Of a stretch of DNA of 64,000 nucleotides, positions 2,091 to 30,993 are shown piece by piece. The notes beneath the pieces were generated by a model. The model did no database searches. It saw only the letters and a program-made list of their open reading frames with translations, and was not told the DNA's origin. The DNA is taken from the sequence record KC801932; one strand, written 5' to 3'. The DNA comes from Escherichia phage Lw1. The position numbers and the translations under genes are program-made. How positions within the stretch are numbered: the first letter of the stretch is position 1; each line of letters begins with the position of its first letter.

Positions 2091-2558
2091 TTAGCCGTCA
2101 TAACCGCCACCGCATTTAACATCACCTTCAATGAACAGTTCGCGGTTGTCTCTCAAAAGATTGTATTTCTTTTCGAGTTCCGGCCCGAATGCGTCAGCGT
2201 CTTCATAATAGCTATAATTATAACAACCGCATTCATCATCCCATTCAGGATCATCACCGCATTCGTTGAAATGTACCACTTTGATATCATCAACGCCCAG
2301 TTCTTTCATTTTATTCCAGATATACCGGATGTCAACGCTATGATAACTGAATGCTTCAAGGGTGATACTATCACCATCAATTTGAGGAATACCCCATTTA
2401 GAACGTTGGTCATCGGTAATGATATCCAGTAAAGATTCTACGTTTTCATGTCCGTAAATCTTCGCGACCTCTTCCTCTTTACCAGGACGAACAAGCCCGA
2501 TCCCGATAATAAAGCTACTGCTTGAACTGTTACTTACAAAACCAGAACGGATCTTCAT
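2091..2558 (-). CDS. hypothetical protein with N-terminal leader MKIRSGFVSNSSSSSFI (paralog A, 155 aa)
   Basis: first 17 aa identical to ORF 5968-6480, remainder unrelated; ATGA start/stop overlap with upstream membrane-protein gene. Confidence 0.6.
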   Translation of the reverse strand: MKIRSGFVSNSSSSSFIIGIGLVRPGKEEEVAKIYGHENVESLLDIITDDQRSKWGIPQIDGDSITLEAFSYHSVDIRYIWNKMKELGVDDIKVVHFNECGDDPEWDDECGCYNYSYYEDADAFGPELEKKYNLLRDNRELFIEGDVKCGGGYDG

Positions 2559-2746
2559 CGTCTTACCTCGTATTTCGCGTTCTCAGCGATTTTTTCTTGA
2601 TAGATGTTATATGACATTACCAGAGGCGCAATCGCCACGATAAGCCCTATAAAGCACACAGAGAACTCACGTTTATTGAAAGCCAGGAACGCAATTGCGC
2701 TCCCGACTACAAACACACCTAATGCCAGTAAGAAGAATAGCGTCAT
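2555..2746 (-). CDS. small membrane protein (63 aa, two predicted TM helices)
   Basis: hydrophobic segments LLALGVFVVGSAIAFLAF and FIGLIVAIAPLVM. Confidence 0.5.
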   Translation of the reverse strand: MTLFFLLALGVFVVGSAIAFLAFNKREFSVCFIGLIVAIAPLVMSYNIYQEKIAENAKYEVRR

Positions 2747-7385: not shown

Positions 7386-7589
7386 TCACTGGATATAGCG
7401 GTTGTAGTTGACGTGCCACATGAGACTTGACACAACATCATAAGCAAGCAAAGAGAACAAGACAAAAGTCACTATCAAAAGGATAGCTAACCAAGTAGTT
7501 CCGATCTGGTGTTTTGAAGATAACAACAAACACACGATACTGACAAAAGAAAGTACAGTGATAACAAGCATCACGATTGAAGGGGCCAT
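7386..7589 (-). CDS. small membrane protein (67 aa)
   Basis: two hydrophobic helices; GAGGA RBS; preceded by terminator hairpin 7607-7622. Confidence 0.5.
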   Translation of the reverse strand: MAPSIVMLVITVLSFVSIVCLLLSSKHQIGTTWLAILLIVTFVLFSLLAYDVVSSLMWHVNYNRYIQ

Positions 7590-13834: not shown

Positions 13835-13933
13835 TCATAAAACAGACGCAATAATCAATACACCAAGCAAACCGCCAATAAAGCCGAAGAATAGCGAAAT
13901 GAAGATAGATAAGATGATCTGTTTTATGTTCAT
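13835..13933 (-). CDS. possible 32-aa hydrophobic peptide
   Basis: ATG..TGA ORF below ORF-track size cut-off; single predicted TM helix; low confidence. Confidence 0.25.
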   Translation of the reverse strand: MNIKQIILSIFISLFFGFIGGLLGVLIIASVL

Positions 13934-15760: not shown

Positions 15761-16153
15761 TCAGGTTATGTCATACCAGCATAAGCTACGCTCATATGCG
15801 CGGATCTTGTTGGCGTTTTCGATGTTTTCATCCCACCCAATTACACCAGCTTTCATCCGGCGCAATTCCTGACGCATCTTTTCACGAACTTTTGAATCTA
15901 TGCGCTTCTTTGCAATTTCGAGCATAACGGAAATGTCACCATGTGCTTTGTTACCGTCGCGGTTCACGTTCTTATCAAACCGGATATATGCGCAACCTGA
16001 TTTGTGTTTCCAATTGGTTGTATACCAACGTAAACCATCAGGGCTTTCCCCGTGTTGTGCATAATACTGTGAAAATGCTTTTGTCTCTTCGATCTGTTCG
16101 ATAGAGGACTTATCACGGGCTGGAACATATTTGTTACGGTAAGTACGGCTCAT
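15761..16153 (-). CDS. hypothetical protein (130 aa)
   Basis: ORF followed by hairpin + T6 terminator at 15722-15745. Confidence 0.45.
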   Translation of the reverse strand: MSRTYRNKYVPARDKSSIEQIEETKAFSQYYAQHGESPDGLRWYTTNWKHKSGCAYIRFDKNVNRDGNKAHGDISVMLEIAKKRIDSKVREKMRQELRRMKAGVIGWDENIENANKIRAYERSLCWYDIT

Positions 16154-16183
16154 AATGACTCTCCTTTGTTGTCTGATTACACC

Positions 16184-16768
16184 TTAACAGTTCACACCGA
16201 CTTTATCAAGCACCTTTTCATGATAATGCTTGCGACACAACGAAACGTATTTGTCTTCGGCTCCGATTTCGACTTGCGCCCCTTCTGTTACGAAGTTGCC
16301 TTGTGCGTCGATACGGGCGACCGTAGTTGCTTTACGTCCACAGTGACACATTCCCCTCAGTTCGCGGATCTCGTCAGCCCAGGCAAGCAACCAGTAAGAA
16401 CCCTCGAACAGATTCAACTGAAAGTCGGTACGCAACCCGTAGCACATCACAGGAATTTCGAGTTCATCGACAATACGACACAGATCGAAAACGTTTTTCT
16501 TCGAGAGGAATTGCGCTTCATCAACGAAGATACAAGAGATATTATTCCGGCGCAGGATATCCCAGAACAGATCCATTCTGGGTGCAATCAGTTCACAATT
16601 TGCACTTAGCCCAACACGAGAAGCAACAGTGTGTGATGTGCGAGTATCAAGCATAGGCTTGTAGATCACAACGTTCATACCGCGTTCTTTGTAGTTGTAT
16701 GCGTCTGTTAACAGACGCGCACTTTTGCCAGCGTTCATTGATGCGTAGTGATAATACAGTTTAGCCAT
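16184..16768 (-). CDS. tk: thymidine kinase
   Basis: P-loop YASMNAGKSARLL, FVDEAQF, C-terminal zinc ribbon CHCG..C..H; collinear with recalled T4 Tk. Confidence 0.9.
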   Translation of the reverse strand: MAKLYYHYASMNAGKSARLLTDAYNYKERGMNVVIYKPMLDTRTSHTVASRVGLSANCELIAPRMDLFWDILRRNNISCIFVDEAQFLSKKNVFDLCRIVDELEIPVMCYGLRTDFQLNLFEGSYWLLAWADEIRELRGMCHCGRKATTVARIDAQGNFVTEGAQVEIGAEDKYVSLCRKHYHEKVLDKVGVNC

Positions 16769-16973
16769 GTTTAGCCCGTTCCTCTGCTACTGCATCAAAC
16801 ACCGCGTCTTCAACTTCTTTTTCGACGAATGAAATGATTTCATCAACCATGCGATCGATGTATAATTGGTTGACATTGCGCGAATCTGGATCATCTTCTG
16901 CTGCATAATCCTGGTAAAGTTCTCCCAGTTCTTTCAGCTTGTGTTTTAACACTTTTTCTTCTTGAACTCTCAT
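16761..16973 (-). CDS. hypothetical protein (70 aa)
   Basis: ORF overlapping tk start. Confidence 0.45.
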   Translation of the reverse strand: MRVQEEKVLKHKLKELGELYQDYAAEDDPDSRNVNQLYIDRMVDEIISFVEKEVEDAVFDAVAEERAKHG

Positions 16974-17146
16974 TCTCTCGCCTCTTTACGTTCTTTATCG
17001 ATTAAGTCATCAACGAAACTGACAATATCATCCCACCAGTCCAATGCTTCCTGTGATGCTTTCGCGTCACCTTCGAGGAAACGATCGCGGGACTTTACGA
17101 AGTTCTCTACTTTCTTATAGAGTTTTTCTTTATCTGCGTTGATCAT
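16970..17146 (-). CDS. hypothetical small protein (58 aa)
   Basis: ORF below track cut-off; ATGA overlaps at both ends couple it to neighbours. Confidence 0.35.
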   Translation of the reverse strand: MINADKEKLYKKVENFVKSRDRFLEGDAKASQEALDWWDDIVSFVDDLIDKERKEARE

Positions 17147-17619
17147 AATTCCACCTTACGCATATCAATAGACGGATCGAAGTGTACCACGATGGTCGGA
17201 TAGTCGCCAGTAGAATCGTTTATAATGTCTTTAATGCGTTCCCAGTCGCCTCCAGCAAGCCCCGCACCAATAAGAGGGTAACGTTCAGGACACGCCCTGG
17301 CGCTTTCCACGGCGCTTTCAAAGCATGAACGGATTGCGTCGTAATCCACTTGTGGGCCAGCACCCCAGAACTTAAACTGGGTATAGGCGTTGAACACCAT
17401 ACGACCATCCTCTTGAACATAAACAGAGTTACGGCCCAGTTTTTTCTGGTTGCCTTTAAGCGTCATTGCATCCATTCGAAACGCGCCAGGGATTTTCTTC
17501 TTTACTTCTTTTGCAATCCCCGCACCCATATTACAGAAGCAGTTACACCCATGAATCAGGTGTACGTCACGACGAAGGAACAACTCAACAGCGTTCCCTT
17601 TAATCTCTTTGATAATCAT
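17143..17619 (-). CDS. macrodomain protein, TARG1/DarG-like (ADP-ribose processing)
   Basis: LIHGCNCFCNMGAGIAKEV matches the recalled H-C-x-S/N-x-D/C-x-x-MGAGIA core of TARG1/OARD1-type macrodomains; second Gly-rich loop GAGLAGGDW. Confidence 0.55.
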   Translation of the reverse strand: MIIKEIKGNAVELFLRRDVHLIHGCNCFCNMGAGIAKEVKKKIPGAFRMDAMTLKGNQKKLGRNSVYVQEDGRMVFNAYTQFKFWGAGPQVDYDAIRSCFESAVESARACPERYPLIGAGLAGGDWERIKDIINDSTGDYPTIVVHFDPSIDMRKVEL

Positions 17620-17711
17620 TCTTTATTACCCATTTTATAGCCGATCCCAATGACCAGCCCCATCAAAATAACCGCGCTTATCAAAAGCGCGAATTGTAGA
17701 CCTATGCTCAT
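17616..17711 (-). CDS. possible 31-aa membrane peptide
   Basis: ATGA-coupled to macrodomain gene; hydrophobic core LLISAVILMGLVIGIG. Confidence 0.3.
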   Translation of the reverse strand: MSIGLQFALLISAVILMGLVIGIGYKMGNKE

Positions 17712-17851
17712 TTAAATTGATCGTCCCATAGTTGCCACGCTTCCAGTTCATCATTGTATTCAGGGAGTGAACGTTCCCCTGGTTTCTTGACGTAATACCA
17801 GATAATGATAGCAACGGCGATAACAGTACCGTAAAAGATAATTAATCCCAT
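17708..17851 (-). CDS. possible 47-aa membrane peptide
   Basis: TAATG-coupled to upstream gene; N-terminal TM helix. Confidence 0.3.
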   Translation of the reverse strand: MGLIIFYGTVIAVAIIIWYYVKKPGERSLPEYNDELEAWQLWDDQFK

Positions 17852-18177
17852 TAGTATAATCCTATTCCGGCGTTATATTCATCCACCAGATAGGTACGCA
17901 GTTTTTCGCAGCGTTCCTTATTCGGTGCGCGGGTACAGAGTTTCATCATTGGTTCAGACTGCAAGAACTCGCGTTGTTTAGCCAGCTTTTGACGTTTGTA
18001 CAAGTGCGCGTTTTCTTCGCCCCACACATAAGCCGCGTCCAGTTGTTCCGCGATCACCTGGTAACATACCACAGTATCTTTAATGTCTCGATGGTCGCAG
18101 AGTTCAGACAGACGGTTGTCATCAACAGCGAACACGGAACCAGAAACCAAAGTCAGCAACAGCGCAAGTTTTTTCAT
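17851..18177 (-). CDS. small secreted protein (signal peptide MKKLALLLTLVSGSVFA)
   Basis: classical signal peptide. Confidence 0.5.
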   Translation of the reverse strand: MKKLALLLTLVSGSVFAVDDNRLSELCDHRDIKDTVVCYQVIAEQLDAAYVWGEENAHLYKRQKLAKQREFLQSEPMMKLCTRAPNKERCEKLRTYLVDEYNAGIGLY

Positions 18178-18179
18178 TA

Positions 18180-18581
18180 TTACTCTCCAAGTACGTAAAC
18201 AAAGCGGTCTTCGATTGAATCGTTAACACATTCGTAAATTCCCCCAGCGCGTACAGCTTTACGAATGCCGGATTTTACGATTTCCATGATCTCTTTGTTG
18301 CTTCCCCATACATTCAAATTGAAGTATAGCGCACATTCGATTGGATAGTCTTCTACGTTGCGATACACATCATCACTTTCACATACAAACAGTATGCGCT
18401 TTTCTTCTCCATATTCGAAGTAAATGCTAAACGCGTTCATACTGTTTTTATCAACAGTGATTTGAGTGATTTTAACGTTCGGTTTGCTTTTGAGTTCAGC
18501 AAGAACACTCTGAATAATAGATAACGCATTCAGTTTAATAAGTCCGCATTTTCCTACAATAACACGATGTGATGTACTCAT
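18180..18581 (-). CDS. hypothetical protein (133 aa)
   Basis: ORF; preceded by hairpin/promoter cassette 18585-18650. Confidence 0.45.
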   Translation of the reverse strand: MSTSHRVIVGKCGLIKLNALSIIQSVLAELKSKPNVKITQITVDKNSMNAFSIYFEYGEEKRILFVCESDDVYRNVEDYPIECALYFNLNVWGSNKEIMEIVKSGIRKAVRAGGIYECVNDSIEDRFVYVLGE

Positions 18582-18648
18582 AATTCAACCCTCAATAGTT
18601 GGTACACACATAATAAAAAAGCCCCTGCAAAAATGCAAGGGCTTTCGA

Positions 18649-19296
18649 TTAAATAATTTGCTTTTCTTCTAACAGTTTCGCGGTATGGTTAACCATGCGA
18701 GCATAATCACGGGCTTCTTTCTTCGTATACTTGAAGCCAGCGTTATAGCTTGCCAGCGCCTTTTTCAAGTCGCCTTTGTGGTAATCAAGCCAGTATTCCA
18801 GTTCATGAATGGCAAACTTAGAACCTCCCCGAAGGGATTCGAGCTTATTGATTACTACGCGTTTGGAATATGATTTATCCATCCGTGCGGAAGCACTGTT
18901 TACAGTGACTTGCCAACAGCCATAAGCATGATGACCTTTTTTGCCCTTTCCGGTGTTCTCACATGCGCGAGATTCGATCCAGGCAATAGCCGCTAAATGA
19001 TATCCCAAACGTTTCGATTTTTCTTTTTCAGCAGGTTTTGCAGTCGTTAGATCATAGTCGTTGCCAACTCTGAAAGCATACTCCAAAACCTTTTTCTGCT
19101 TTGGTGTAATTTCGTCCAATTCCTTGACATATGCAGGGGCATTGGCTGGTGCTTTCTTGATCACTGTTGCCTGTTGAAGCGGAAGTGTTGACTGAACAGC
19201 AGGAAGTTTTTCGATGAATTCTCCTAGCGGATCTGTCTTTGCGTGACCAGAAAAAGAGCATAAGAAAATGCTGGTCGCTAAAATAATTTTCTTCAT
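18649..19296 (-). CDS. secreted lytic transglycosylase-like (SLT domain) protein
   Basis: signal peptide; SLT-like motifs IESRACEN...GAYGCWQV and ASYNAG. Confidence 0.5.
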   Translation of the reverse strand: MKKIILATSIFLCSFSGHAKTDPLGEFIEKLPAVQSTLPLQQATVIKKAPANAPAYVKELDEITPKQKKVLEYAFRVGNDYDLTTAKPAEKEKSKRLGYHLAAIAWIESRACENTGKGKKGHHAYGCWQVTVNSASARMDKSYSKRVVINKLESLRGGSKFAIHELEYWLDYHKGDLKKALASYNAGFKYTKKEARDYARMVNHTAKLLEEKQII

Positions 19297-19356
19297 TGAT
19301 TAGTACCTTTTGTAACAAGAGAGGGCAATGATACCCTCACCTTATTATTTACGCAA

Positions 19357-19917
19357 CTAAAATTCTGGTTCTTCCGACTCACCCAGTTTATTGATGATGA
19401 ATTCAGCAACGTTATAGTTTGAAATCGACTTATTGGGATCGTACAGGGAAACGAGTTTTTCGAAAGATACTTGTACGACTTTCTTAAAGTGGACACCCCA
19501 GTTAGTAAAAAAGATCTCACTATTATCGAAACCACAATCAGGACTGAATAAAGCGCGATACTTATATCCGCTATAACCTTCCAGTCGGCTACTATGGTGT
19601 GCGTTACTGGTGATAAGGAAACGCCCCTGATGTGTTTCAACAACATAAAAGAAACCCAGACGTTCTTTATCATCAAATATACTGACAAATTTACGATGTG
19701 ATTCCTCGCGTTCAACACGGGTTTCAATGGCTTTCCATGTTGGTTCGTATTCAGGCCAGTCGTGTTCAACAACAACAGCCTTTAACGGTTCTTTACCATC
19801 ACGGGAACGCTGGCGTTCAACCCGTCGCGCAATAAAACGCAACTTTAGTTGGTCTTCGTATGACATTTTATCTACATCAGACAGTTTGATCACGATATAC
19901 TTTTGTTCGCGTTCCAT
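19357..19917 (-). CDS. hypothetical protein (186 aa)
   Basis: ORF. Confidence 0.45.
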   Translation of the reverse strand: MEREQKYIVIKLSDVDKMSYEDQLKLRFIARRVERQRSRDGKEPLKAVVVEHDWPEYEPTWKAIETRVEREESHRKFVSIFDDKERLGFFYVVETHQGRFLITSNAHHSSRLEGYSGYKYRALFSPDCGFDNSEIFFTNWGVHFKKVVQVSFEKLVSLYDPNKSISNYNVAEFIINKLGESEEPEF

Positions 19918-30034: not shown

Positions 30035-30993
30035 TATTTTGGCAATTTTTTGATTAATGCTTGTAAGTCGTTGATTTTAGAAAACAGTTCATCGCTATAT
30101 CGCATCAATTCCTGTCTGCGTTTCGCAGCCCATGAAACCAATGTTTTTGCATCATCAACACCATAAGTGTATCCATCAGCGGATAGACGAATGATCGCAC
30201 GAGAACCGTAGTCAGCATTTGCATGTTCGATTAAAAACTTCACCGCTTCGAGAAGTTCGGAATCTTCCTTACTGACTAGAACACCGTTATCATCAGGAAA
30301 TTCGTTTTCATCATGAACACTTGCAAAATCAAGGTCGATATAATCATCCTGATTCACCTGGCGGCGCGTGTTGTCTTCGAGACTTTCAATCTGTGAAACC
30401 ATAGTTTCGACCGGATCTCTTTCAATTGGTTCTCTGTCGGTTCCTACTTCTTCCAGGAACATCAACAACCAACCAGGGATCAACGAATCAAAAGAACGCT
30501 GAATATGGCTTGCATGGTCACTACCCAGTATTTTCAACGCACAACCGTCTTTAGTAGCGGTATGGATATAGATAACATTACGGTCACGCATACGGCGGCT
30601 ACCATGAGAAAGATAGCGACGTAGCGAAGTGTTATGTCCATAGCGTCCCAGATCCAGGTTACACAGGGAATCAATAGCCCCACGGTTAGCAATCCGGTAG
30701 CGCGTACCAGTTTCAAATCGCAACTTTTCGGTAGTCACTGGTGTGAATTCTTCGTAAAGAATGTAATATTCTTTCGGGATCTCGCGATCAAGAACTCTCA
30801 ATACACCATTCTCCGAAGGAGTGAGCACAGAACGAACATTACCGTTCGCATCGCAATGTACCTGCATGACTTGAGGATAATAGAACCCTTTAGCCTTTAG
30901 GGTGTATTCATGCAAACGACTCAAGCGCTTTCTGTAGTACCATTTACCAGTAACAAACGGGGTTGCAGATCCTGCTAAACTAATTGGTTTCAT
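30034..30993 (-). CDS. hypothetical protein (319 aa), co-transcribed with DUF262 gene
   Basis: ATGA overlap with upstream DUF262 ORF; no motif recognised. Confidence 0.5.
   Translation of the reverse strand: MKPISLAGSATPFVTGKWYYRKRLSRLHEYTLKAKGFYYPQVMQVHCDANGNVRSVLTPSENGVLRVLDREIPKEYYILYEEFTPVTTEKLRFETGTRYRIANRGAIDSLCNLDLGRYGHNTSLRRYLSHGSRRMRDRNVIYIHTATKDGCALKILGSDHASHIQRSFDSLIPGWLLMFLEEVGTDREPIERDPVETMVSQIESLEDNTRRQVNQDDYIDLDFASVHDENEFPDDNGVLVSKEDSELLEAVKFLIEHANADYGSRAIIRLSADGYTYGVDDAKTLVSWAAKRRQELMRYSDELFSKINDLQALIKKLPK

What the first reader, a model, noticed from the sequence alone, without database searches (positions are those of the whole stretch)
17616..18177. Chain of overlapping tiny membrane or secreted peptide genes feeding into the macrodomain gene
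A secreted 108-aa protein (17851-18177), a 47-aa TM peptide (17708-17851) and a 31-aa TM peptide (17616-17711) are linked by TAATG/ATGA overlaps and end in the macrodomain gene start. The two peptides fall below the ORF-track cut-off. Small membrane peptides in T-even early regions often act in superinfection exclusion or host-membrane manipulation.
Basis: seen in the sequence. Interest (0 to 1): 0.35.

Follow-up and report, generated by a model that had tools for sequence, protein, structure and literature searches.

The report
Two tiny conserved phage membrane-peptide genes
Two very short genes (47 and 31 codons) between the vs and macrodomain genes of an RB16-like T4-type phage are real, conserved genes for single-helix membrane peptides, but relatives already list them as hypothetical proteins and their function is unknown, so the finding is sound but ordinary.

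Summary
On the minus strand, ORFs 18177..17851 (108 aa), 17851..17708 (47 aa) and 17711..17616 (31 aa) are joined by TAATG, ATGA and ATGA overlaps and run into the macrodomain gene (17619..17143).

The window is a Pseudotevenvirus, 98% identical to RB16. The 108-aa protein is the orthologue of T4 Vs. The macrodomain protein is the orthologue of T4 Tk.4/AdfM.

Both micro-ORFs are under purifying selection (dN/dS 0.03-0.10 and 0.15). Both have PHROG families (10683, 16377). Both are annotated as hypothetical proteins in Miller and RB43, and Margaery and Matisse annotate counterparts. Each is predicted to be one N-out/C-in transmembrane helix. The 47-aa peptide adds a cytoplasmic acidic helix with an invariant Y-x-DEL-x2-W-x2-WD motif.

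They are not tied to the macrodomain gene, because RB16 and Miller keep both peptides but lack it. The overlaps are not special either: all eight genes from 18581 to 16184 are packed this way.

Function remains unknown. Superinfection exclusion, holin, toxin and anti-defence roles are all untested. No similarity to any characterised family was found.

Verdict: real genes, already catalogued, low novelty. Side notes: Vs proteins all carry a signal peptide and four invariant cysteines, and genes are gained or lost exactly at the ATGA junctions.

The parts
18617..18646 (-). Intrinsic terminator hairpin after vs.1 (GAAAGCCCTTGCATTTTTGCAGGGGCTTTT + T-run). It marks the upstream boundary of the transcription unit.
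   Evidence: 13-pair stem with T-run found by the scan. Conserved in 5 phages, and KP15 keeps the pairing through changes on both stem arms. Annotated as a terminator in Miller, CfP1, Margaery and KP15.
18610..18615 (-). Invariant -10-like hexamer TATTAT directly after the hairpin. Together with TTGCAT (TTGACT in KP15) 17 nt upstream it forms a composite terminator-promoter of the PeSL type. Inferred start of the vs-tk operon.
   Evidence: Alignment. KP15 record annotates a 'putative middle promoter' at this place. PeSL description from PMC4122927. Promoter activity is inferred, not shown.
18180..18581 (-). First gene of the unit: 133-aa protein of unknown function (phrog_8072).
   Evidence: ORF list. 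phrog_8072 E 6.3e-71. GAGG Shine-Dalgarno upstream.
17851..18177 (-). Vs orthologue: 108 aa with a signal peptide and a helical domain carrying four invariant Cys (C27, C38, C81, C90).
   Evidence: phrog_1256 E 1.4e-22. 28% identity to T4 Vs. Same position between vs.1 and tk.4 as in T4. 33-sequence alignment. AF2 model mean pLDDT 86.6. Best BFVD matches are Vs of phages S16 and phi25-307.
17708..17851 (-). 47-aa bitopic membrane peptide: TM helix at residues 2-22, a KKPGERSLP linker, and an acidic Trp-rich helix at 32-46 (motif Y-N-DEL-EA-W-QL-WD). Its start overlaps the Vs stop (TAATG).
   Evidence: phrog_10683 E 1.1e-35. dN/dS 0.027-0.099 with third-position bias. 60 phage records. Distant relatives in POP12 and P0008 keep the motif. 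AF2 helices 2-22 and 32-46. Annotated in RB16, Miller, RB43, CfP1, Margaery and leE.
17616..17711 (-). 31-aa membrane peptide, almost entirely one TM helix (residues 5-23) with a G18xxxG22xG24 face and a short basic tail (YKMGNKE). ATGA overlaps at both ends.
   Evidence: phrog_16377 E 2.8e-6; the Slopekvirus counterpart scores E 3.7e-23. dN/dS 0.15 against RB43/GuL6 with only conservative replacements. 79 records, all those examined syntenic. Annotated in Miller (96 bp) and RB43 (93 bp); a related 32-aa ORF is annotated in Matisse.
17672..17692 (-). Terminator-like hairpin inside the 31-aa ORF (TCGCGCTT-TTGAT-AAGCGCGG, then TTATTTTGAT). Lineage-specific, possibly a weak attenuator ahead of tk.4.
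   Evidence: Scan hit. dG -11.4 kcal/mol, z -2.56. CfP1 annotates a terminator inside the homologous ORF. The GC-rich hairpin is absent in RB43/GuL6 (which have a different AU-rich hairpin without a T-run) and in Matisse, although the peptide is kept.
17143..17619 (-). Tk.4/AdfM-type macrodomain protein, 158 aa.
   Evidence: 35% identity to T4 Tk.4, E 3e-27. Pfam Macro PF01661. Weak match to NCBIfam DarG antitoxin, E 4.7e-6. T4 Tk.4 was shown to counter DarTG2 (bioRxiv 10.1101/2025.11.20.689424).
16970..17146 (-). 58-aa acidic helical protein (phrog_19420), ATGA-coupled on both sides.
   Evidence: Present or absent as a cassette among close relatives.
16761..16973 (-). 70-aa protein (phrog_12899). 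Overlaps tk by 8 nt.
16184..16768 (-). Thymidine kinase (tk), last gene considered here.

Best explanation
The 47-codon and 31-codon ORFs are real accessory genes of an RB16-like Pseudotevenvirus. They lie in an eight-gene, tightly packed pre-replicative transcription unit: 133-aa gene, vs, 47-aa, 31-aa, tk.4/adfM, 58-aa, 70-aa, tk. The unit starts at a composite terminator-promoter just downstream of vs.1.

Shown here: both frames are conserved and under purifying selection, each peptide has one strongly hydrophobic helix, and they sit in the slot between vs and tk.4, where relatives carry two or three such micro-ORFs.

Inferred: ribosomes finishing vs restart at TAATG for the 47-aa ORF (an AGGA lies 8 nt upstream, inside the conserved GIGLY codons). 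They then restart at the two ATGA overlaps for the 31-aa ORF and tk.4, both of which have poor Shine-Dalgarno sequences. Both peptides would insert into the inner membrane N-out/C-in, because their Lys/Arg residues lie only after the helix. The 47-aa peptide would then display a conserved acidic, tryptophan-bearing helix in the cytoplasm as a binding surface. The 31-aa peptide would be little more than a TM helix with a small-xxx-small packing face. The most likely role, at about 0.3, is as small membrane modulators that bind a host inner-membrane protein and/or each other during takeover, in the manner of bacterial small membrane proteins. They act independently of the macrodomain gene.
For: ORFs and overlaps. 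Lineage: 98% identity to RB16 and about 90% to Miller/CfP1. Synteny vs.1-vs-tk.4-tk as in T4. Selection: 47-aa ORF dN/dS 0.027 against RB43 and 0.078 against Margaery; 31-aa ORF 0.15 against RB43/GuL6. Families: phrog_10683 E 1e-35 and phrog_16377 E 3e-6. Annotated as CDS in relatives. Distant 47-aa relatives in POP12 (55 aa) and P0008 (46 aa) keep a TM helix plus the Y-x-DEL-x2-W-x2-WD motif. In every locus read where a member of the 47-aa family is present, a second tiny TM ORF lies next to it (window, RB16, Miller, CfP1, RB43, GuL6, Margaery, leE, two IMG/VR contigs, POP12, L020). Topology and helices. Independence from tk.4: RB16 and Miller lack tk.4 but keep both peptides. Operon start.
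Against: There is no direct evidence of translation, membrane insertion or any phenotype. The 31-aa test rests on only 19 substitutions. The family is narrow: the 47-aa type was found only in Pseudotevenvirus genomes, in POP12 and on one short sequencing-run contig, despite searches of 5.8 and 1.84 billion proteins. T4 itself has no ORF between vs and tk.4, so the genes are dispensable for the T4 way of life. The functional part (binding a host membrane protein, or pairing of the two peptides) is inference from architecture only.
Confidence: 0.8

Rival explanations
1. The 31-codon ORF is not a functional peptide. Either it is only a coupling 'bridge' that hands ribosomes from the 47-aa ORF to the weakly initiating tk.4, or the region acts as RNA (an internal terminator or attenuator hairpin at 17692..17672).
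For: ATGA overlaps at both ends and a poor Shine-Dalgarno sequence for tk.4. Terminator-like hairpin, dG -11.4 kcal/mol, z -2.56. CfP1 annotators call a terminator there.
Against: The peptide is kept, with conservative hydrophobic replacements, where the GC-rich hairpin is absent: RB43/GuL6 carry only a different AU-rich hairpin without a T-run, and Matisse has none. The ORF persists in RB16 and Miller, where tk.4 is gone. All variants at this slot (phrog_16377; phrog_34526, which only weakly matches 16377; POP12 32 aa; L020 26 aa) keep a TM helix. No Rfam match near a gathering score.
Confidence: 0.08
2. The peptides act in superinfection exclusion or block of DNA entry, like T4 Imm/Sp.
For: Inner-membrane location is predicted. 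They are presumably expressed pre-replicatively, next to exported proteins Vs and Vs.1.
Against: No sequence similarity to any Imm or Sp family in PHROGs, Pfam or NCBIfam. The architecture (one TM helix, 31-47 aa) differs from Imm (83 aa, two TM, from my own knowledge) and Sp (periplasmic, from my own knowledge). No assay exists.
Confidence: 0.1
3. They are counter-defence factors, placed in the same variable cassette region as the anti-DarTG2 macrodomain Tk.4/AdfM, that neutralise a membrane-bound host defence effector or sensor.
For: Direct neighbour of the tk.4/adfM orthologue. The slot is highly variable between close relatives, as accessory or anti-defence regions are.
Against: This is guilt by association only. 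The peptides occur without tk.4. No similarity to any described inhibitor.
Confidence: 0.12
4. They are membrane-damaging peptides (type I toxin-like or holin-like) that depolarise the host for shut-off or lysis timing.
For: Size and composition resemble Hok/TisB-type toxins (my own knowledge). One Slopekvirus record labels the neighbouring 34-aa TM peptide 'holin'.
Against: No match to holin or toxin families. The genes sit in a vs-tk unit, not a lysis cassette. The 'holin' label is an unsupported annotation on a different peptide. No hit to any Rfam family, including antisense-RNA families, reached a gathering score in 16000-19500.
Confidence: 0.08
5. The peptides form one envelope module with the exported Vs protein, for example as membrane anchors or partners of periplasmic Vs.
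For: In Pseudotevenvirus, Slopekvirus and POP12, vs is followed directly by 2-3 coupled TM micro-ORFs, although their sequences differ. Every Vs homologue has a signal peptide and four invariant Cys.
Against: T4 and phiP4-3 have vs without these ORFs between vs and the next gene. The predicted N-out/C-in topology leaves only 1-4 residues in the periplasm. L020 carries the peptide pair with no vs visible on the contig, which is only 999 bp.
Confidence: 0.1

Closest known systems
RB16p136, Miller gp149/gp148, RB43 ORF149c/ORF148c (PHROG 10683 and PHROG 16377, 'unknown function')
   Same: Same genes. The 47-aa peptide is 100% identical to RB16 and 98% to Miller. The 31-aa peptide is 100% identical to RB16 (unannotated there) and 97% to Miller gp148. 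Same position after vs.
   Different: Nothing of substance. In the window the 31-aa ORF is followed by tk.4, as in CfP1 and RB43. In RB16 it is followed by the 70-aa gene and in Miller by the 58-aa gene.
T4 vs-tk.4 region (vs.1, vs, tk.4/adfM, tk.3-tk.1, tk)
   Same: Same gene order and strand. Vs and Tk.4 are orthologues. Same ATGA-type coupling.
   Different: In T4, vs overlaps tk.4 directly, with no TM micro-ORFs between them. The window also has an extra 133-aa gene between vs.1 and vs.
Bacterial small membrane regulators (AcrZ, MgrB, MgtS and similar; my own knowledge)
   Same: Under 50 aa, one TM helix, and a short soluble tail that could contact a larger membrane protein.
   Different: No sequence relationship. 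Phage-encoded. Target unknown. This is a resemblance in design only.
T4 superinfection-exclusion proteins Imm and Sp
   Same: Early-expressed phage proteins acting at the envelope.
   Different: No homology found. Different size and topology. No phenotype data.
PeSL composite promoter-terminator cassettes of T4-type hyperplastic regions (PMC2839356, PMC4122927)
   Same: A hairpin plus sigma-70-like hexamers at 18646..18610 heads this variable block of small ORFs. Gene content differs between near-identical genomes.
   Different: The gene-precise indels seen here occur at ATGA stop/start overlaps, not at PeSLs.

Membership tests
PHROG 10683 (47-48-aa T4-like phage membrane peptide, function unknown) | Full-length match to the family profile | tested here: met
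   E 1.1e-35, residues 1-47 against profile 2-48 of 48.
PHROG 10683 (47-48-aa T4-like phage membrane peptide, function unknown) | N-terminal TM helix plus C-terminal Y-x-DEL-x2-W-x2-WD motif | tested here: met
   KD 2.31 over residues 3-21. Motif invariant in 6 divergent members. AF2 helices 2-22 and 32-46.
PHROG 16377 (31-32-aa TM peptide upstream of tk.4) | Match to the family profile | tested here: met
   E 2.8e-6 for the window peptide. E 3.7e-23 for the Slopekvirus member. The score is modest because the peptide is short.
PHROG 16377 (31-32-aa TM peptide upstream of tk.4) | Conserved position, ATGA-coupled to the next gene | tested here: met
   Window, RB16, Miller, CfP1, RB43, GuL6, Matisse, KLB3 and PMBT1.
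Vs family (T4 vs; phrog_1256; precomputed Pfam PF26829) | Sequence or profile similarity to T4 Vs | tested here: met
   phrog_1256 E 1.4e-22. BLASTP to T4 Vs 28% identity, E 5e-5. Homologues carry PF26829.1.
Vs family (T4 vs; phrog_1256; precomputed Pfam PF26829) | Signal peptide, four conserved Cys and a helical fold | tested here: met
   33-sequence alignment. AF2 model. Best BFVD matches are Vs proteins, probability 1.0.
Vs family (T4 vs; phrog_1256; precomputed Pfam PF26829) | Binds and modifies host valyl-tRNA synthetase | not testable with these tools
   Biochemical property reported for T4 (cited in PMC8076793). The predicted export of the protein sits uneasily with it.
Tk.4/AdfM macrodomain (anti-DarTG2) | Macro domain and orthology to T4 Tk.4 | tested here: met
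   PF01661 at 25.8 bits, above the 22-bit cut-off. 35% identity, E 3e-27 to T4 Tk.4. Weak DarG match.
Tk.4/AdfM macrodomain (anti-DarTG2) | Protection against DarTG2 | not testable with these tools
   Shown for T4 only (bioRxiv 10.1101/2025.11.20.689424).
T4 Imm / Sp superinfection exclusion | Homology to Imm or Sp | tested here: not met
   No PHROG, Pfam or NCBIfam match other than the two unknown-function PHROGs.
T4 Imm / Sp superinfection exclusion | Exclusion phenotype | not testable with these tools
   Needs infection assays.
Holins | Match to a holin family and location in a lysis cassette | tested here: not met
   No holin PHROG or Pfam hit. The genes lie between vs and tk. The only 'holin' label is on a different Slopekvirus peptide and is unsupported.
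Type I toxin peptides (Hok, TisB, Ldr, Ibs) | Known toxin family or cognate antisense RNA | tested here: not met
   No Pfam or NCBIfam hit. No Rfam hit near a gathering score in 16000-19500.

The most novel reading that the evidence does not exclude
The vs locus may be an envelope-directed module rather than a translation-related one. Vs proteins would be exported, disulfide-bonded periplasmic proteins; all 33 homologues carry a signal peptide and four invariant Cys. The two or three TM micro-peptides that follow vs in several genera would work with it at the inner membrane. That would mean the textbook label 'valyl-tRNA synthetase modifier' is incomplete or attached to the wrong compartment.
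Probability: 0.1. Interest if true: 0.55.

Novelty: already known. Interest (0 to 1): 0.2.

Why it matters
It has small practical value. It shows that two sub-50-codon ORFs that gene callers often skip are real conserved genes; the 31-aa ORF is unannotated in RB16, CfP1, GuL6 and leE. They should be annotated as membrane peptides. It corrects the reading of the neighbours as Vs and Tk.4/AdfM. If a function were found, it would add to the few known roles of phage micro-proteins. The variable slot next to an anti-defence gene is a reasonable place to look. As it stands this is a typical hyperplastic-region cassette of a T4-type phage.

Tried and rejected
(1) Vs as a paralogue of the periplasmic antiholin rI (both have a signal peptide and Cys pairs). 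hhalign probability was 1.7%, aligning only the signal peptides. Rejected.

(3) The terminator-like hairpin in the 31-aa ORF as the conserved element. It is not conserved in RB43/GuL6 or Matisse. Rejected as the main explanation.

(4) The alternative same-strand frame 17635..17814 (59/39 aa) as the real gene. Substitutions fall on third positions of the 47-aa and 31-aa frames. Rejected.

(5) A wider family for the 47-aa peptide. The word-indexed search found 5 close relatives. A profile search of 1.84 billion representatives found 2 true relatives plus one spurious repeat protein. The metagenome scan found none. The IMG/VR scan returned the same five genomes.

(6) Pfam and NCBIfam scans of both peptides found nothing meaningful. 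Rfam found nothing near a gathering score.

(7) Primary literature on how the T4 vs ORF was assigned. It is not held in the library, so the conflict between signal peptide and ValRS binding could not be resolved.

(8) Literature on small membrane proteins of RB43/RB16-type phages found nothing relevant.
Full report
**What is there.** All genes in this part of the window are on the minus strand. The mechanical ORF list and the raw sequence give this order:
- vs.1-like gene, 19296..18649 (215 aa)
- a strong hairpin terminator, 18646..18617
- a 133-aa gene, 18581..18180
- the 108-aa gene, 18177..17851
- the 47-aa ORF, 17851..17708
- the 31-aa ORF, 17711..17616
- the macrodomain gene, 17619..17143
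- a 58-aa gene, 17146..16970
- a 70-aa gene, 16973..16761
- tk, 16768..16184

They are not special to the peptides. Every junction from 18581 to 16184 is a 2-nt gap or a 1-, 4- or 8-nt overlap, so the whole eight-gene block is one tightly coupled unit.

**Whose genome.** The 3.3-kb stretch is 98% identical to Escherichia phage RB16 over 80% of its length, and about 90% identical to Citrobacter phages Miller, CfP1 and IME-CF2. All are Pseudotevenvirus. The gene order matches the T4 region regB - vs.1 - vs - tk.4 - tk.3..tk.1 - tk.

**The neighbours.**
- The 108-aa protein is the Vs orthologue. It matches phrog_1256 'valyl tRNA synthetase modifier' at E 1.4e-22. It is 28% identical to T4 Vs. Its homologues carry PF26829. 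The best viral fold matches of a confident AF2 model (mean pLDDT 86.6) are Vs proteins of phages S16 and phi25-307.
- The macrodomain protein is the Tk.4 orthologue. It is 35% identical to T4 Tk.4 at E 3e-27 and matches Pfam Macro and, weakly, the DarG antitoxin model. T4 Tk.4 was recently named AdfM and shown to protect against DarTG2. In the same study a vs deletion impaired plaque formation on minimal medium only (bioRxiv 10.1101/2025.11.20.689424).

**Are the two micro-ORFs genes?** Yes, with high confidence for the 47-aa ORF and good confidence for the 31-aa ORF.
- The 47-aa peptide matches phrog_10683 at E 1.1e-35. The 31-aa peptide matches phrog_16377 at E 2.8e-6.
- tblastn finds the 47-aa frame in 60 phage records and the 31-aa frame in 79. 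Every copy whose locus was read lies in the same position.
- Pairwise Nei-Gojobori estimates for the 47-aa ORF give dN/dS 0.027 against RB43, 0.037 against GuL6 and 0.07-0.10 against the Margaery/leE type. Against RB43, 20 of 27 differences fall at third codon positions.
- For the 31-aa ORF, dN/dS is 0.15 against RB43/GuL6. Of 19 differences, 10 are at third positions, and all replacements are conservative (L/M, L/I, S/T, A/V, K/R, E/Q).
- The alternative same-strand frame (17635..17814) is therefore not the selected one.
- The ORFs are annotated as hypothetical proteins in several records. The 47-aa ORF appears in RB16, Miller, RB43, CfP1, Margaery and leE. The 31-aa ORF appears in Miller and RB43. 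Related 32-aa ORFs appear in Margaery and Matisse.

**What the peptides look like.**
- The 47-aa peptide has a hydrophobic stretch at residues 3-21 with no charge before it and KK directly after it. A linker (PGERSLP) and an acidic tail (EYNDELEAWQLWDDQFK) follow. AF2 with the small family alignment gives helices 2-22 and 32-46 at moderate confidence.
- Two distant relatives keep the same plan and the invariant Y-x-DEL-x2-W-x2-WD motif: a 55-aa ORF in Pectobacterium phage POP12, and a 46-aa protein (P0008) from a sequencing-run contig.
- The 31-aa peptide is essentially one TM helix (residues 5-23) ending in GLVIGIGYKMGNKE. This gives a G-xxx-G-x-G face and a short basic tail. The Slopekvirus counterpart keeps G-xxx-A.
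- By the positive-inside rule both peptides would sit N-out/C-in. This is inferred.

**Context across relatives.** The slot between vs and tk.4 always holds small TM ORFs in these genera, but their identity changes:
- Window, RB16, Miller, CfP1, RB43 and GuL6 have the 47/48-aa peptide plus the 31-aa peptide.
- Margaery, leE and two IMG/VR contigs have the 48-aa peptide plus a 32-aa TM peptide of another PHROG (34526).
- Slopekvirus Matisse, KLB3 and PMBT1 have 38-aa, 34/37-aa and 32-aa TM peptides.
- POP12 has a 32/43-aa TM ORF followed by the 55-aa relative.
- The 999-bp contig L020 again shows the 46-aa relative followed 4 nt later by a 26-aa TM ORF.
- T4 has nothing between vs and tk.4.

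In every locus read, a member of the 47-aa family has a second tiny TM ORF beside it. This is compatible with the two acting together, but does not prove it.

**No functional tie to the macrodomain gene.** Among genomes at least 90% identical, all four combinations of tk.4 and the 58-aa gene occur after the 31-aa ORF: window (+,+), RB16 (-,-), Miller (-,+) and CfP1 (+,-). Each indel is gene-precise and sits on the ATGA overlap, with 4-7 nt of microhomology. The peptides are retained in all four. So the 'feeding into the macrodomain gene' is packing and translational coupling, not a functional unit.

**Expression model (inferred).**
- The hairpin at 18646..18617 is conserved, and KP15 keeps its pairing through changes on both stem arms. 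It is followed by an invariant TATTAT 17 nt after TTGCAT (TTGACT in KP15). KP15's annotators place a middle promoter there.
- This arrangement matches the composite promoter-terminator (PeSL) elements described for T4-type hyperplastic regions (PMC4122927).
- The 133-aa gene and vs have good GAGG/GGAG Shine-Dalgarno sequences. The 47-aa ORF has AGGA 8 nt upstream, inside the conserved GIGLY codons of vs. The 31-aa ORF and tk.4 have poor ones, so termination-reinitiation at ATGA is the likely route.

**Rivals.**
- A terminator-like hairpin lies inside the 31-aa ORF (17692..17672; dG -11.4 kcal/mol, z -2.56), and CfP1 annotates a terminator inside the homologous ORF. This GC-rich hairpin is not conserved in RB43/GuL6, which have a different AU-rich hairpin without a T-run, or in Matisse. 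The peptide is conserved in all of them. At most the hairpin is a lineage-specific attenuator layered on a coding sequence.
- Roles in superinfection exclusion, as a holin or toxin, in anti-defence, or as a Vs partner all remain possible. None has supporting evidence beyond location and architecture.
- No similarity to Imm, Sp, holins, type I toxins or any characterised family was found in PHROGs, Pfam, NCBIfam or Rfam.
- The 'holin' label in one Slopekvirus record is on a different peptide and is unsupported.

**Breadth.** Searches of 5.8 billion proteins (word-indexed) and 1.84 billion representatives (profile search), plus scans of IMG/VR and JGI metagenomes, found no relatives of the 47-aa peptide outside this narrow group. 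No bacterial homologue was found.

**Side observation on Vs.** All 33 aligned Vs homologues, T4-type sequences included, have an N-terminal signal peptide and four invariant cysteines. The mature domain is a confident helical bundle with no PDB relative. That predicts an exported, disulfide-bonded protein. This sits oddly with the classical description of Vs as a factor binding cytoplasmic valyl-tRNA synthetase (cited in PMC8076793). The primary papers that assigned the ORF could not be read here. A suspected relationship to rI was tested and rejected.

**Verdict.** However, they are the same genes already deposited as hypothetical proteins in close relatives and grouped in PHROGs. Their arrangement is typical of T4-type hyperplastic regions, and nothing here points to a new mechanism. 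Interest is low (0.2). The most novel reading not excluded is that vs and the peptides form an envelope module, at about 0.1 probability.

Noticed in passing
window 17616-17619, 17143-17146, 16970-16973 (compare L001, L002, L005): Gene-precise cassette polymorphism at ATGA stop/start overlaps. Four genomes at least 90% identical show all four presence/absence combinations of tk.4 and the 58-aa gene: window (+,+), RB16 (-,-), Miller (-,+), CfP1 (+,-). Breakpoints fall on 4-7 nt of microhomology such as AGAATGA or ATGAT.
   Followed up: yes
window 17851-18177 (-); alignment A4: Every Vs ('valyl-tRNA synthetase modifier') homologue, T4-type sequences included, has a signal peptide and four invariant Cys. 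The fold is a confident helical bundle with no PDB relative. Predicted export conflicts with the textbook cytoplasmic role.
   Followed up: partly
window 18610-18646 (-): Composite terminator-promoter (PeSL-like). The hairpin pairing is kept in KP15 through changes on both stem arms, and an invariant TATTAT lies 17 nt after TTGCAT/TTGACT. It heads the vs-tk block.
   Followed up: partly
L009 (KP15) 1545-1733 versus L010 (Matisse) 2543-2641: In KP15 the third TM peptide is replaced by a 62-aa soluble protein related to the window's 58-aa gene, but it keeps the last ~9 codons (LYRNNKNDH) of the TM peptide. The swap preserved the segment that carries the tk.4 start region.
   Followed up: partly
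window 18649-19296 (-) versus L001 3404-4588: vs.1 (signal peptide plus SLT lytic-transglycosylase domain) is intact in the window. In RB16 it is split, with an HNH homing endonuclease gene next to the fragments.
   Followed up: no
L020 582-806: A 999-bp sequencing-run contig carries a 46-aa relative of the 47-aa peptide. It is followed 4 nt later by a 26-aa TM ORF. Upstream is the end of a YadA-anchor-like ORF, and downstream is a CxxC ORF like leE gp142.
   Followed up: partly
P0002 (Citrobacter phage IME-CF2): IME-CF2 annotates a 72-aa fusion of the 47-aa peptide to the alternative frame. This is probably a 1-nt indel or sequencing error near the stop. The 31-aa frame is still intact there.
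   Followed up: no
window 2555-2746, 7386-7589, 13835-13933, 30534-30641 (all -): Other short minus-strand ORFs (63, 67, 32 and 35 aa) with strongly hydrophobic helices. They may be further unannotated membrane micro-proteins.
   Followed up: no
L021 1100-1204 (Klebsiella phage KLB3): A 34-aa TM peptide between vs and tk.4 is labelled 'holin' in the record. No family match or context supports this.
   Followed up: partly
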